Source of the DNA: Pecten maximus | Lineage: Eukaryota | Direction of reading: 5' to 3' | Length of the DNA: 64,000 bases | NCBI RefSeq assembly: GCF_902652985.1 | Contig: NC_047017.1 | Span: 10,974,001 to 11,038,000, forward strand | In this document: positions 3,001-64,000 of the stretch, piece after piece | How positions within the stretch are numbered: position 1 is the first letter of the stretch | How the letters are laid out: each line of letters starts with the position of its first letter | Made by a program: the position numbers

Positions 3001-6000
3001 TTGTACCTATGTACCGGTTACTACATCTATCTGACCAGGGAGCCATGTGTTATATAAGTACAGGTAGATTTGTACCTGTGTACTGGTTACGACATCTACA
3101 TCTATCTGACCAGGGAGCCATGTGTTATGTAAGTACAGGTAGATTTGTACCTATGTACCGGTTACGATATCTATCTGACCAGGGAGCCGTGTGTTATGTA
3201 AGTACGGGTAGATTTGAACCTATGTACCGGTTACTACATCTATCTGACCAGGGAGCCATGTGTTATGTAAGTACAGGTAGATTTGTACCTATGTACCGGT
3301 TACTACATCTATCTGACCAGGGACCCGAGTGTTATGTAAGTACAGGTAGATTTGTACCTATGTACCGGTTACGACATGTATCTGACCAGGGAGTCGTGTG
3401 TTATGTAAGTACAGGTAGATTTGTACCTATGTATCGGTTACGACATCTGTCTGACCAGGGAGCCATGTGTTATATAAGTACAGGTAGATTTGTACCTATG
3501 TACCGGTTAAGTCATCTATCTGACCAGGGAGCCGTGTGTTATGTAAGTACAGGTAGATTTGTACCTATGTACCGGTTACGACATCTATCTGACCAGGGAG
3601 CCGTGTGTTATATAAGTACAGGTAGATTTGTACCTATGTACCGGTTACGATATCTATCTGACCAGGGAGCCGTGTGTTATGTAAGTACAGGTAGATTTGT
3701 ACATATGTACCGGTTGCGACATCTATCTGACCAGGGAGCCGTGTGTTATGTGAGTACAGGTAGATTTGTACCTATGTACCGGTTACTACATCTATCTGAC
3801 CAGGGAGCCGTGTGTTATGTAAGTACAGGTAGATTTGTACCTATGTACCGGTTACTACATCTGTCTGACCAGGGAGCCGTGTGTTGTGTGAGTACAGGTA
3901 GATTTGTACCTATGTACCGGTTACGACATATATCTGACCAGGGAGCCATGTGTTATGTAAGTACAGGTAGATTTGTACCTTTGTACCGGTTACTACATCT
4001 ATCTGACCAGGGACCCGTGTGTTATGTAAGTACAGGTATATTTGTACCTATGTACCGGTTACGACATCTATCTGACCAGGGAGCCGTGTGTTATGTAAGT
4101 ACAGGTAGATTTGTACCTATGTACCGGTTACGTCATCTATCTGACCAGGGAGCCGTGTGTTATGTAAGTACAGGTAGATTTGTACCTATGTACCGGTTAC
4201 TACATCTGTCTGACCAGGGAGCCATGTGTTATGTACGTACAGGTAGATTTGTACCTATGTACCGGTTAAGCCATCTATCTGACCAGAGAGCCGTGTGTTA
4301 TGTACGTACAGGTAGATTTGTACCTATGTACCGGTTACTACATCTGTCTGACCAGGGAGCCGTGTGTTGTGTGAGTACAGGTAGATTTGTACCTATGTAC
4401 CGGTTACTACATCTGTCTGACCAGGGAGCCGTGTGTTATGTAAGTACAGGTAGATTTGTACCTATGTGCCGGTAATGAAATCTATCTGACCAGGGAGCCG
4501 TGTGTTATGTAAGTACAGTTAGATTTGTACCCATGTACCGGTAACGAAATCTATCTGACCAGGGAGCCGTGTGTTATGTAAGTACAGGTAGATTTGTACC
4601 TATGTACCGGTTACGACATCTGTCTGACTAGGGAGCCGTGTGTTATGTAAGTACAGGTAAAACACAAGTCATTCCAGGTTTTCATTTCTTTGTAACACTA
4701 TACCATCGAAATTCACATCAATATTAAATAAAAATGTGCCTGTACGTTAGATACGTTCTCTCATAATTCCAGGTGCGCTATGGCCCTCGTTCATTCCCGG
4801 ATAGGACGTGTCTTCTATGGAAGTCCATTTCCTCAGGAAGGAGCGCTCGGATCAAAATACAAGCTTCACACTCAGACAGGTCTCAACCACCACTACCAAG
4901 TCTTCTGTGATGTGTTGGAAGCTGAGTGTGAACATCTGTACGACGCAGCTGTAACATAGGGCATAGTCTTCCTTTACTACTGGGTTACATTGACATGTTC
5001 TATATGGTGACCAATCAAGCTACAGGGTGTAGATATCATTGACCAATTCAGTTACAGGATGTGATCATCCTTGACCAATTAAGTGACAGGATGTATATAT
5101 TATTGACTAATTTAGTTACAAAATATGGTCATCCTTGGCCAATTAAGTGACATGATGTAGACATTCTTGACCAATTAAGTGATAGAATGTAGGTATTCTT
5201 GACCAATCAAGTTACAGGATGTGGACATCCTTGTTCGGTGAAGTTACAGAATGTGGACATTCATGACCTGTCAAGTTACAGGATAAAGACATAATATTTT
5301 ATTTGATGGCTAATTGAAGGATGTTGACAATCTGGACCTGTGCAGTATAATGATAAGATTAAGGGACACATGTTTCATCAGAAATTACTCTGGTCGAAAG
5401 TTTCTAAGGACCGGATATGCAAAATGTATGTTTTATACAATAAAATTTACAAATTAGATAGATTTGAATGTTTACTGAACATATTCATACCCGTATCTGG
5501 AGCTAAAAAGAATTAGCTAGGCCTCTGAGGAAGACTTTGAGAAGGATTAGATAGGTCTATGTGGTAAGACTACATTAATGGTTCATGCATCGGCGATGGG
5601 GGTCTCGTCGGATACCCACAGTTGATTGCACTACTGTAAACGCTGAAATTTACGCGAGGGGAGAATTTACGCTAATTTCTCATTTTGTTCGTAAAAATTT
5701 CCCCCACGCTTGTTATTTTGATATCAATTTGCGTAATCTTAAACTACGAAAGTAGATCGATCGCGAAAATTACCCCCACGCGTATAGTTTACATATTAAA
5801 ATCGCGAAATTAACCCTCCGCGAAAATAATCACATTGACAGTATACAATACGCTACACTGTCAACCTTCCGTAATTGTGGGGAAGGCAATTCCTCGACTT
5901 TAAACATTTCATTGAAAAACATTACAGAATATGAGTAAAGTTTCCTTAACACTGGTGTCTTAAGGGATGCTCTTCAGGTAAGGAATATTGATGAAGCCAC

Positions 6001-63000: not shown

Positions 63001-64000
63001 TGTTATATGACATAACTACAACTAGCCCGAGTTTCCACTGTCCCTGCCACCATGTAAGGTATCTCACGCCCGATTTAATTTCATCTGCATCAAATTCCAC
63101 GTTTTCATATAATACTGTGCCCTTTCCCTACACCAGATGACGACAAGGCCACAGAGTAAACTCAGGCTAAACTACAATATGTTAATTTGCTCGCATTTTA
63201 GCGGATAATGAATATAGTATATGATTAATTTGTGTACTTGGTTAATATTATAAATAAGTCATACTTACATCTTTTGATATATATTGTATTCGGCGCTGTA
63301 CCCCAAGCTTTCGATCTACCGCCTCCGCGAGGTCATGATACGACAGGATTATACCGGGACGCGATATACCAGAGTTACTTCCCTTCAAGTTGACAGCCGA
63401 TGAGACCGAAAATACAAAAGAAATATTATCAAAAGAAATGAAGATAAAATATACCACATGTTATTGTTGTTCTCTCTTTAAGATTAAAAAAAAACATTAT
63501 TTGTGTTTTATAAGATAAGTTTATATCCGATTCAGGACTTAAAGTTCTCTATATACCTTACAACGAGTTTTAGGTAACCTTTGAAAGTCACGACGAGATT
63601 AGTCCTAATACTAGTTATAGTTATTGTGTTAAAAGCTTATAATCTTAAAATCTCTCTTTTACTTTCTACTTCAGGAAATGGTGCTGAAACTCTAAATACT
63701 AGACACCCTGTATCTGTCCTGGATGATATATACTACAGACCGGTCTCCTTAGGTAAACCTATTACGTGTTATTATATTAGTCAGCAACACAGCTGATTGT
63801 TCTGAATCCATTAATTTCATTATGTTGTACATGTCTGTATTTTATCATAATATTCTCTCAGCATATTGAAGTCTCTTCAATTTCAAATACTATCATGTAC
63901 ATGACCTCTTGATAATGCCTTTTAAGATAATGAAACAATGCTAAATTATGTAACCTCATAAGAATTCAATAAGATTTAGCATATTAAGATCACGGGAAGA

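What the first reader, a model, noticed from the sequence alone, without database searches (positions are those of the whole stretch)
4773..63752. Tandem co-amplification of normally single-copy ADAT3 with a TRIM-NHL gene (>=5 ADAT3 copies)
Seen in sequence: the unit recurs with TRIM start codons at 11191, 26444, 41027 and 59936. All three fully visible ADAT3 copies keep open frames and GT-AG sites, while three of four TRIMs are disrupted. Established: ADAT3 is typically single-copy and works as a heterodimer with ADAT2, and TRIM expansions are common in bivalves. Inference: ADAT3 is either a passenger on an immune-type birth-death array or is itself the dosage target; the pattern of intactness hints at the latter.
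Basis: partly seen in the sequence, partly recalled or inferred. Interest (0 to 1): 0.65.

Follow-up and report, generated by a model that had tools for sequence, protein, structure and literature searches.

The report
Scallop ADAT3–TRIM tandem gene array
A stretch of king scallop chromosome repeats a pair of neighbouring genes, a tRNA-editing helper (ADAT3) and an immune-type TRIM ligase, at least four times in a row; at least two ADAT3 copies are kept working while most TRIM copies have just broken, which is unusual for ADAT3 but an ordinary kind of gene amplification.

Summary
The window is Pecten maximus. It carries a head-to-tail array of 14.4, 16.3 and 19.0 kb units plus a cut fourth. 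Each unit holds a TRIM-NHL gene on the minus strand, head-to-head with an 8-exon ADAT3 on the plus strand. Five ADAT3 copies touch the window: three complete (B, C, D) and two cut by its ends (A, E). All 24 exons of B, C and D are open and 21 of 21 introns are GT..AG. One of four TRIMs is intact.

- Copies C and E have CTA where the conserved start ATG lies.
- The ADAT3-versus-TRIM contrast in intactness is not significant (P 0.08–0.25), and TRIM coding sequence also shows past constraint.
- ADAT3's last intron holds a 69-bp satellite made from the exon 7/intron 7 junction, placing 5–67 identical pseudo-donors behind the true one.

B and D are under purifying selection: 0 frameshifting indels against 11.4 expected (P 1.2e-5) and dN/dS 0.46. 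Mosaic identity between units argues against simple haplotig artefacts. Dosage selection stays untested. This is a new member of a known kind.

The parts
1..4659 (+). 69-bp satellite (66.6 units in view) filling intron 7 of ADAT3 copy A; cut by the window start
   Evidence: TRF; self-blast; 45 GTAAGT sites
4773..4959 (+). ADAT3 copy A, exon 8 (last exon, with stop)
   Evidence: peptide identical to that of copy B, AG acceptor
6332..6678 (-). Degenerate relic of the TRIM NHL region (about 82% to the TRIM copies). Equivalent relics lie at 20527-20918, 37001-37403 and 55962-56362
7204..8034 (-). Open 276-aa NHL-only ORF inside a ~2-kb internal duplication (7126-8025 resembles 9110-10012 at 93%). 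Its twin in U2 is at 22466-23296
   Evidence: no AG acceptor in front of it
9191..11191 (-). TRIM copy T1, disrupted: +1 nt at codon 592, -1 nt at codon 651
   Evidence: RING above Pfam cut-off
12972..13138 (+). Block conserved in all four spacers about 290 nt upstream of ADAT3 exon 1; candidate core promoter or 5' exon. Equivalents: 29680-29843 (U2); in U3 and U4 the block lies within 42570-42880 and 62949-63399
   Evidence: function inferred only
13429..19327 (+). ADAT3 copy B, complete. Exons 13429-13506 (ATG at 13446), 14102-14156, 14935-14999, 15379-15574, 15806-15917, 17385-17541, 17949-18327, 19141-19327. Intron 7 holds the satellite 18277-19027 (10.9 units)
24442..26444 (-). TRIM copy T2, disrupted: +2 nt near codon 591
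30181..35628 (+). ADAT3 copy C, all exons open but CTA in place of the start ATG. Exons 30181-30258, 30856-30910, 31376-31440, 31819-32014, 32245-32356, 33822-33978, 34385-34763, 35442-35628. Satellite at 34713-35328 (8.9 units)
39030..41027 (-). TRIM copy T3, the only intact one (665 aa): RING, B-box/coiled-coil region, NHL-type repeats
43110..54589 (+). ADAT3 copy D, complete with ATG. Exons 43110-43187, 46020-46074, 46695-46759, 47136-47331, 47559-47670, 47935-48091, 48431-48749, 54403-54589. Intron 7 holds a 5.6-kb satellite at 48699-54289 (about 80 units)
43423..45688 (-). Insertion in intron 1 of copy D with 530-bp terminal direct repeats (99.4% alike) and a 296-aa ORF carrying a weak zinc-knuckle match; absent from the other units
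57936..59936 (-). TRIM copy T4, disrupted: stop at codon 128
63675..63752 (+). ADAT3 copy E, exon 1 only (window ends); CTA in place of the start ATG, as in copy C

Best explanation
This is a real, lineage-specific tandem array in Pecten maximus. Its unit is a divergently oriented gene pair: an intronless TRIM-NHL E3-ligase gene on the minus strand and ADAT3, the non-catalytic partner of ADAT2 in the tRNA A34-to-inosine deaminase, on the plus strand.

**How it arose (inferred).** The array grew by unequal crossing-over between misaligned units. Gene conversion or further crossing-over has since reshuffled it. Internal duplication, mobile-element insertion and satellite length change have remodelled it.

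**How it works (inferred).** Each unit looks like it carries its own ADAT3 transcription unit: a conserved upstream block, eight exons, and poly(A)-like hexamers 415-480 nt after the stop.

**State of the genes (shown).** At least two copies, B and D, are kept as working ADAT3 genes by purifying selection. Copy C, and E as far as it is visible, lacks the canonical start codon and is of doubtful coding value. The TRIM copies were constrained for most of the array's history and are now being lost by single recent lesions, with 1 of 4 intact.

**Most likely course (inferred).** ADAT3 was first carried along because it sits head-to-head with a member of a fast-turnover TRIM family. The extra ADAT3 copies were then retained by selection. 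Whether that selection is for dosage, or against harmful truncated subunits, is open.
For: **Array and units.**

**Species and ADAT3 identity.**
- establish the species and the match to the NCBI proteins.
- Pfam PF00383 scores 59.5 bits on the NCBI protein that equals copy B.
- Mouse ADAT3 structure 7nz7_B matches at E = 9.8e-64, with HAVM aligned to HATM and PCVMC identical.

**Intactness.**

**Selection on B and D.**
- There are 0 frameshifting indels in the exons against 11.4 expected (P = 1.2e-5). Even if only one lineage were neutral, about 5.7 would be expected (my arithmetic).
- dN/dS is 0.465 (p = 0.008) and 0.27 without exon 7.
- B, C and D are equally similar to three outgroup scallop proteins: 233/271, 233/271 and 235/272 identical against Mizuhopecten, excluding exon 7.

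**Against an artefact.**
- The window has no N.
- No unit has a constant nearest neighbour. U1 is 99% like U3 and U4 at 4660-6660. It is 98.6-99.8% like U2 at 6660-8660 and 15160-18160. It is only 88-92% like U3 over the ADAT3 body.
- Spacers come in two alternating types.
- Divergence between units of up to about 11% exceeds the reported genome heterozygosity of 1.71% and 1.24% (passages of PMC7191990 and PMC8437780).

**TRIM family turnover.** The closest relatives are many Mizuhopecten paralogues at 61-63% identity, clustered on shared scaffolds.
Against: - No read depth, expression or population data could be consulted, so copy number rests on one assembly. That assembly was built from noisy long reads (wtdbg2), and the region is full of satellites.
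- Copies C and E lack the conserved ATG. The first 8 residues of NCBI's isoform X3 are not encoded anywhere in the window, so the 5' ends of the transcripts are not understood.
- dN/dS of 0.46 is only moderate constraint, and it overlaps the TRIM values of 0.45-0.85.
- Gene conversion blurs divergence estimates. The B-C indel test is inconclusive (expected 2.8, P = 0.06).
- Intron indel rates may be inflated by intronic tandem repeats.
- Long arrays of pseudo-donors in intron 7 could impair splicing of some copies. This is untested.
Confidence: 0.6

Rival explanations
1. Pure passenger. The array is an immune-type TRIM birth-and-death cluster, and ADAT3 is amplified only because it lies inside the duplicated segment. 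The extra copies give no benefit. They stay open because they are young, are homogenised by gene conversion from one working copy, or because truncated ADAT3 would poison the ADAT2 partner and is removed.
For: - TRIM relatives are numerous and clustered in scallops.
- The units carry nested TRIM fragments, showing repeated TRIM-centred rearrangement.
- The intactness contrast is not significant.
- Copy C is a mosaic whose 3' two-thirds are 98-99.8% identical to B, and it lacks the start ATG.
- ADAT3 and TRIM dN/dS values overlap.
Against: - B and D differ by 6-9% at silent sites and introns, yet they show no frameshift where 11.4 are expected, and dN/dS is below 1. Both lineages have therefore been constrained for a long time, not merely recently converted.
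- Three of four TRIMs are dead, which is odd if TRIM diversity drives retention of the array.
Confidence: 0.3
2. Assembly artefact. Two haplotypes, or mis-joined reads in a satellite-rich region, were laid out in tandem, and the true locus has one or two units.
For: - The reference genome is heterozygous (1.71%) and was assembled from noisy PacBio reads.
- A later assembly of the species needed haplotig purging.
- Units end in long 69-bp satellites, which are hard to assemble.
Against: - There is no gap in 64 kb.
- At least four units plus a fifth ADAT3 fragment are present, more than two haplotypes can supply.
- Units differ by an internal 2-kb duplication, a 2.3-kb insertion, two spacer types and a 1.2-kb difference in intron 5.
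- There is no consistent partner unit, and divergence reaches about 11% where alleles should differ by about 1-2%.
Confidence: 0.07
3. Functional diversification. The ADAT3 paralogues are not redundant. They differ in the exon-7 loop and at the N-terminus, and give ADAT2/3 complexes with different regulation or substrate range.
For: - Exon 7 holds 23 of the 35 non-synonymous B-D differences and a 20-aa length difference, in a ~110-aa loop absent from mouse ADAT3.
- Copies C and E would need another start.
- Precedents read as passages: in Fusarium, a partner bound to the Tad3 N-domain redirects Tad2/Tad3 to mRNA (PMC11087585). Amphioxus ADAT2/3 edits DNA (PMC10354150).
Against: - The exon 7 loop evolves near neutrality (9 synonymous changes in 72.8 sites against 23 non-synonymous in 242.2), and it varies by slippage of a 30-bp repeat.
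- No copy is accelerated relative to outgroups.
- Mizuhopecten ADAT2/3 showed no DNA-editing activity (PMC10354150 passages).
Confidence: 0.08

Closest known systems
Lineage-specific tandem expansions of TRIM / TRIM-NHL-like genes in bivalves
   Same: - Intronless RING / B-box / coiled-coil / NHL-type genes sit in direct tandem.
- Copies are young, some dead, and the propeller part has higher dN/dS (0.59-1.33).
- Many paralogues share scaffolds in Mizuhopecten and Argopecten.
   Different: - Here the repeated unit also contains a complete housekeeping gene, ADAT3.
- That gene, not the TRIM, is the better preserved.
Canonical ADAT3 / Tad3 (for example mouse ADAT3 in structure 7nz7)
   Same: - N-terminal domain plus deaminase-fold domain.
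- The catalytic Glu is replaced (HATM here, HAVM in mouse).
- PCVMC zinc motif and following helix are identical.
   Different: - There are at least five gene copies in tandem, instead of the usual single gene. 'Usual' is recalled; one search is consistent with it, giving one 90% cluster per other species.
- A ~110-aa repeat-containing loop is inserted between the two zinc-motif halves.
- Two copies lack the canonical start.
Human F7 intron 7 VNTR (37-bp minisatellite whose first unit spans the exon 7 / intron 7 boundary; PMC1557585, abstract read)
   Same: - The 69-bp satellite's first unit spans the ADAT3 exon 7 / intron 7 boundary. The authentic donor is therefore followed by sequence-identical pseudo-donors.
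- The NCBI models join the first donor to exon 8, as the scanning model of that paper predicts.
   Different: - It is far larger: up to about 80 units and 5.6 kb, with about 67 pseudo-donors against 'several'.
- It has a ~2.2-kb higher-order period.
- It is present in every paralogue, in an invertebrate.
- Silence of the pseudo-sites is not shown here.
Retargeted ADAT2/3 enzymes (Fusarium Tad2/Tad3 with Ame1, PMC11087585; amphioxus ADAT2/3 acting on DNA, PMC10354150)
   Same: They show that changes around ADAT3 can alter what the deaminase acts on. This is a lead for paralogue function.
   Different: - Neither involves ADAT3 gene amplification.
- The scallop (Mizuhopecten) enzyme was negative for DNA editing.
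- Nothing here shows a new activity.

Membership tests
ADAT3 / Tad3 | Cytidine/adenosine-deaminase fold domain | tested here: met
   Pfam PF00383 scores 59.5 bits (cut-off 25) and PF14437 54 bits on NCBI protein P0002. P0002 contains all 8 exon peptides of copy B. Single exons alone score below cut-off.
ADAT3 / Tad3 | Catalytic Glu of the H-A-E motif replaced by a non-catalytic residue | tested here: met
   HPLQHATMV is present in exon 6 of B, C and D. It aligns to HAVM of mouse ADAT3.
ADAT3 / Tad3 | PCxxC zinc motif | tested here: met
   PCV-M/C-AMAL is split by intron 7 in phase 2. It is intact in B, C and D.
ADAT3 / Tad3 | N-terminal (tRNA-binding) domain homologous to that of solved ADAT3 | tested here: met
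   P0002 residues 23-224 align to mouse ADAT3 residues 31-239. Exons 1-5 are open in B, C and D.
ADAT3 / Tad3 | Usable start codon for the full-length protein | tested here: inconclusive
   The ATG is present in B and D, and CTA takes its place in C and E: 2 of 4 visible first coding exons. An upstream coding exon of NCBI isoform X3 is not in the window.
ADAT3 / Tad3 | Heterodimer with ADAT2 and tRNA A34 deamination | not testable with these tools
TRIM-NHL E3 ligases | N-terminal RING finger | tested here: met
   zf-C3HC4 scores 30.5-37.3 bits (cut-off 21) and zf-RING_UBOX 30.6-34.7 bits (cut-off 25.2) in all four copies.
TRIM-NHL E3 ligases | B-box and coiled coil after the RING | tested here: inconclusive
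   Pfam B-box scores 17.0 bits, below the 24.1 cut-off, and matched in 1 of 4 copies. A family profile aligns positions 22-280 to the KAP1 RING/B-box/coiled-coil structure 6h3a at E = 2.5e-15. No coiled-coil prediction was run.
TRIM-NHL E3 ligases | C-terminal NHL-repeat beta-propeller | tested here: inconclusive
   Pfam NHL scores 17.4-19.1 bits, just below the cut-off of 20. The family profile matches the NHL domains of TRIM71, TRIM2, TRIM3, Thin and Brat at E = 3e-7 to 3e-15, mostly as sums of weak repeats.
Tandem segmental duplication array | Three or more head-to-tail copies of a multi-gene unit without gaps | tested here: met
Tandem segmental duplication array | Copy number confirmed by read depth or spanning reads | not testable with these tools
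   No reads and no eukaryotic genome collection were available.
Exon-intron boundary VNTR (F7 IVS7 type) | First repeat unit spans the exon/intron boundary and pseudo-donors are identical to the true donor | tested here: met
   The unit is the last 51 nt of exon 7 plus the first 18 nt of intron 7. GTAAGT counts, including the true donor where it is in view, are A 45, B 11, C 6 and D 68.
Exon-intron boundary VNTR (F7 IVS7 type) | Pseudo-donors silent; upstream-most donor used | not testable with these tools
   The only indication is that NCBI's predicted proteins join the first donor to exon 8.

The most novel reading that the evidence does not exclude
The amplification of ADAT3 is tied to the satellite in its last intron. 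Multiplying the exon 7 donor 5- to 67-fold lowers the yield of correctly spliced mRNA per gene, because any downstream donor leaves an in-frame TAA directly after the PCVM codons. Extra gene copies were then selected to restore ADAT3 dosage. Alternatively, the paralogues, with their variable loop and N-termini, build ADAT2/3 complexes with new regulation or targets. Either way, an essential, normally single-copy tRNA-editing subunit would have become a copy-number-variable, selected multigene family in a scallop.
Probability: 0.12. Interest if true: 0.7.

Novelty: new member of a known kind. Interest (0 to 1): 0.4.

Why it matters
ADAT3 is an essential partner of the enzyme that makes inosine-34 in tRNAs, and to my recollection it is single-copy almost everywhere. 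A natural array with at least two selected copies offers a way to ask how tightly the ADAT2:ADAT3 ratio must be held. It also shows how a housekeeping gene fares once caught in a fast-turnover immune-gene cluster.

Separately, the exon-junction satellite is an extreme natural version of the human F7 model for 5' splice-site choice. It has up to about 67 identical pseudo-donors, in several paralogues with different repeat numbers, so it can be tested directly with RNA-seq.

I found no paper linking ADAT3 to Pecten maximus or to bivalves, and only one paper holding both 'ADAT3' and 'scallop'; the passages I read from it did not mention copy number.

Tried and rejected
**Searches and checks that found nothing**
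- I looked for the first 8 residues of NCBI isoform X3 in the window with degenerate DNA patterns and a six-frame peptide scan. They are absent, so that exon lies outside the window.
- I asked whether the open NHL-only ORF could rescue the frameshifted T1/T2 by splicing. There is no AG acceptor in front of it, so I rejected this.
- tRNA scan and Rfam: nothing.
- ORFs of 70 aa or more in the type II spacer are only repeat-derived frames.
- Exon-by-exon Pfam gave only sub-threshold deaminase matches. Identity was settled by homologue search instead.

**Comparisons dropped**
- TRIM flank-versus-coding indel comparisons for T1-T3, T2-T4, T1-T4 and T2-T3 were dropped. Their 3' flanks are not homologous (16-19% mismatch with dozens of gaps). 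Only T1-T2 and T3-T4 were used.
- For T1-T2 the permissive gap setting gave 7 one- or two-base gaps against 19.3 expected.

**Hypotheses considered**
- Simple haplotig pairing, U1+U2 against U3+U4. I rejected it as the main explanation because U1 and U3 are only 88-92% alike over the ADAT3 body.

I therefore could not see which NCBI records make up the 6-member and 2-member ADAT3 clusters.
- One literature query had a syntax error and was re-sent corrected.
- One protein search, the representative search, the complex job and the genome-contig scan (bacteria and archaea only) were left unused as uninformative for a scallop locus.
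Full report
**What the window is.** The 64-kb window has no N and a G+C content of about 0.39. The last ADAT3 exon is 100% identical to two NCBI proteins named 'probable inactive tRNA-specific adenosine deaminase-like protein 3 [Pecten maximus]'. Both lie on a 53.45-Mb sequence. The locus is therefore king scallop, not human and not a contaminant.

**The repeat.** Self-comparison and Tandem Repeats Finder show a direct array. Its units are delimited by blocks of a 69-bp satellite:

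| Satellite block | Units |
|---|---|
| 1-4659 | 66.6 |
| 18277-19027 | 10.9 |
| 34713-35328 | 8.9 |
| 48699-54289 | about 80 |

Counting from the end of each block, the units are:

| Unit | Coordinates | Length (bases) |
|---|---|---|
| U1 | 4660-19027 | 14,368 |
| U2 | 19028-35328 | 16,301 |
| U3 | 35329-54289 | 18,961 |
| U4 | 54290-64000 | cut by the window end |

**Genes in each unit.**
- On the minus strand lies an intronless TRIM-type gene. Its RING is above the Pfam cut-offs, while B-box and NHL score just below theirs. A profile built from 27 family members matches the TRIM2/TRIM3 RING, the KAP1 RING/B-box/coiled-coil region, and the NHL propellers of TRIM71, TRIM2, TRIM3, Thin and Brat.
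- Its closest relatives outside the array are Mizuhopecten proteins at 61-63% identity, several per scaffold. Other P. maximus TRIMs are at most 57% identical (132 hits at E <= 1e-10, best 120 listed).
- None of those 120 lies on a contig of the size that holds Mizuhopecten ADAT3. This is a weak hint that the TRIM-ADAT3 neighbourhood is not shared with that species.
- On the plus strand, head-to-head with the TRIM at 2.1-3.7 kb, lies ADAT3 with eight coding exons.

- Exons were located with tblastn of the NCBI proteins against the window. They were then translated and compared one by one.
- The NCBI proteins themselves stood in for the whole protein in the Pfam and PDB searches.
- All eight exon peptides of copy B occur in P0002 (417 aa). 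Exons 6-8 of copy D occur in P0001 (236 aa).
- P0002 matches mouse ADAT3 (7nz7_B) at E = 9.8e-64. The pseudo-catalytic motif reads HATM where mouse has HAVM, and the PCVMC motif is identical.
- A roughly 110-residue insertion is encoded by exon 7. That insertion contains a 30-bp coding minisatellite, with 6.1 units in B and C and 4.0 in D.

- The TRIM ATGs at 11191, 26444, 41027 and 59936 are correct, on the minus strand.
- Compared with the intact T3 (665 aa), T1 has +1 and -1 nt frameshifts at codons 592 and 651, T2 has +2 nt near codon 591, and T4 has a stop at codon 128. So 3 of 4 are disrupted.
- In ADAT3 copies B, C and D, 24 of 24 exons are open and 21 of 21 introns are GT..AG.
- The finding's two end coordinates are exactly exon 8 of a cut copy A and exon 1 of a cut copy E. 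Five copies touch the window.
- **What was missed.** In C and E the codon that is ATG in B and D is CTA. In three other scallop proteins the same position is Met. It is the first residue of the Mizuhopecten isoform.
- Exon 1 has an AG acceptor in all four visible copies, so an upstream exon must exist.
- The eight N-terminal residues of NCBI isoform X3 are encoded nowhere in the window.
- A block conserved in all four spacers about 290 nt upstream of exon 1 may be the promoter or first exon. That reading is inference.

**Is ADAT3 under selection?**
- Nei-Gojobori counts, summed over separately handled exons, give for B against D: 21.0 synonymous differences in 256.0 sites and 35.0 non-synonymous in 890.0 sites. 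dS is 0.087, dN is 0.040 and the ratio is 0.465 (Fisher p = 0.008).
- Without exon 7 the ratio is 0.27 (p = 0.002). Exon 7 alone is near neutral, with 9 changes in 72.8 synonymous sites and 23 in 242.2 non-synonymous sites.
- Intron divergence is 0.064 for B-D, 0.028 for B-C and 0.081 for C-D.
- The stronger test uses indels. B-D introns carry 22 small indels that are not multiples of three in 2381 aligned nt. That predicts 11.4 in the exons, and none is present (P = 1.2e-5).
- The only exon indels are 3 and 57 nt, both in the exon 7 repeat.
- For B-C the expectation is 2.8 and P = 0.06, which is inconclusive.
- B, C and D are equally close to three outgroup scallop proteins.

**Is ADAT3 better kept than TRIM?** Not demonstrably.
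- From the TRIM lesion rate and the shorter ADAT3 target, three intact ADAT3 copies have P = 0.076 to 0.25. Fisher on copies gives 0.14, or 0.49 if C is counted as disrupted.
- TRIM dN/dS is 0.45-0.85 over six pairs. Three of the six are significantly below 1. The NHL part ranges from 0.59 to 1.33.
- T3 against T4 shows no frameshifting indel where 7.2 are expected from the flank.
- Both genes were therefore constrained for most of the array's history, and the TRIM lesions are recent single hits.

**Real array or artefact?** A 500-base sliding comparison shows that no unit has a constant nearest neighbour.
- U1 is about 99% like U3 and U4 at 4660-6660.
- U1 is 98.6-99.8% like U2 at 6660-8660 and at 15160-18160.
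- U1 is 88-92% like U3 over the ADAT3 body.
- The spacer between TRIM and ADAT3 comes in two unalignable types that alternate: U1 and U3 against U2 and U4.

The units also differ structurally:

| Feature | Where present |
|---|---|
| 2-kb internal duplication | U1 and U2 only |
| 2.3-kb insertion with 530-bp terminal repeats | U3 only |
| Intron 5 of 1.47 kb rather than 0.26 kb | B and C only |

Reported heterozygosity is 1.71% and 1.24% (passages of PMC7191990 and PMC8437780). This pattern fits paralogous units reshuffled by gene conversion and unequal crossing-over. It does not fit haplotypes laid end to end. Read depth could not be checked.

**The satellite.** The 69-bp unit is the last 51 nt of exon 7 plus the first 18 nt of intron 7.
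- The first unit spans the boundary, so the true donor is followed by identical GTAAGT sites. Counts, including the true donor where it is in view, are 11 in B, 6 in C, 68 in D, and 45 in the visible part of A.
- Each site has an in-frame TAA directly after the PCVM codons.
- Without the satellite, intron 7 would be about 130 nt. A constant 113 nt separates the last unit from exon 8 in all four copies.
- Long arrays have a ~2.2-kb higher-order period.
- The closest analogue in print is the 37-bp VNTR at the exon 7/intron 7 boundary of human F7. There the pseudo-sites stay silent because the upstream-most donor is chosen by scanning (PMC1557585, abstract read).
- NCBI's predicted proteins use the first donor, but these are models, not evidence of splicing.

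**Literature.**
- No paper in the searched library holds ADAT3 together with 'Pecten maximus' or 'bivalve'.
- The one paper holding ADAT3 and 'scallop' tested Mizuhopecten ADAT2/3 for DNA editing and found none. 'Copy' does not occur in its main text (passages read).
- A search for ADAT3, ADAT2 and 'gene duplication' listed 15 of 18 papers; by their titles and abstract starts, none is about an ADAT3 array (listing only, apart from PMC11087585, whose passages I read).
- That ADAT3 is usually single-copy is my recollection. One search agrees in that the other species listed appear with one 90% cluster per assembly, but such clustering would hide recent duplicates.

**Left open.** Cluster membership of the NCBI records could not be listed. 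The TRIM fold could not be predicted. No eukaryotic genome, read or expression resource was available. The supplements of the genome papers were not seen.

**Verdict.** The feature is a new member of a known kind, a lineage-specific tandem segmental amplification, with one unusual passenger-turned-resident gene and an unusual exon-junction satellite.

Noticed in passing
1-4659, 18277-19027, 34713-35328, 48699-54289: The 69-bp satellite in ADAT3 intron 7 is built from the exon 7 / intron 7 junction. It gives 5 to about 67 pseudo-donors identical to the true one, each followed by an in-frame TAA. Long arrays have a ~2.2-kb higher-order period. It resembles the human F7 IVS7 VNTR but is about ten times larger.
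   Followed up: partly
17990-18168, 34426-34604, 48473-48588: A 30-bp minisatellite inside coding exon 7 encodes 10-residue repeats in a ~110-residue loop that mouse ADAT3 lacks. Unit number differs between paralogues (6.1 against 4.0).
   Followed up: partly
30198-30200 (copy C) and 63692-63694 (copy E), against 13446-13448 (copy B): The conserved ADAT3 start ATG is CTA in copies C and E. The small out-of-frame ATG just upstream is kept in all copies.
   Followed up: partly
outside the window (upstream of 13429): The first 8 residues of NCBI isoform X3 (P0002) are not encoded anywhere in the 64 kb, although the rest of that protein is copy B. Its first exon must lie more than 13 kb upstream, across another ADAT3 copy and a TRIM.
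   Followed up: partly
7126-8025 and 22388-23287: A ~2-kb internal duplication, present in U1 and U2 only, carries an open 276-aa NHL-only ORF. The full TRIM next to it is frameshifted in its own NHL part. No splice acceptor precedes the fragment. The junction abuts a monomer of the 157-bp repeat family.
   Followed up: partly
43423-45688: An insertion in intron 1 of ADAT3 copy D has 530-bp terminal direct repeats (99.4% alike) and a 296-aa ORF with a weak zinc-knuckle match. It looks like a young LTR-type element, but its ends were not defined.
   Followed up: partly
16278-16838, 32715-33275, 28235-28899, 61729-62393: Two related tandem repeats of 159 and 157 bp lie in intron 5 of copies B and C and in the type II spacers. 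They are absent from copy D's intron 5.
   Followed up: partly
12972-13138, 29680-29843; U3 and U4 equivalents within 42570-42880 and 62949-63399: A block conserved in all four otherwise unalignable spacers, ending in a 21-nt invariant stretch about 290 nt upstream of ADAT3 exon 1. It is a candidate promoter or 5' exon.
   Followed up: no
39030-41027 against 57936-59936, and their 3' flanks: TRIM T3 and T4 differ by 4.8% in the coding sequence but by only 1.9% in the 850 nt below the stop. dN/dS is about 1.1 in the NHL part. This could be diversifying selection or patchy gene conversion.
   Followed up: no
5008-5284, 19376-19596, 35677-35952, 54638-54914; 14511-14851, 46379-46608; 21527-21681, 38102-38256, 57060-57152: Further short tandem repeats of 32, 41 and 30 bp recur at fixed places in the units: downstream of ADAT3, in intron 2, and below the TRIM.
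   Followed up: no
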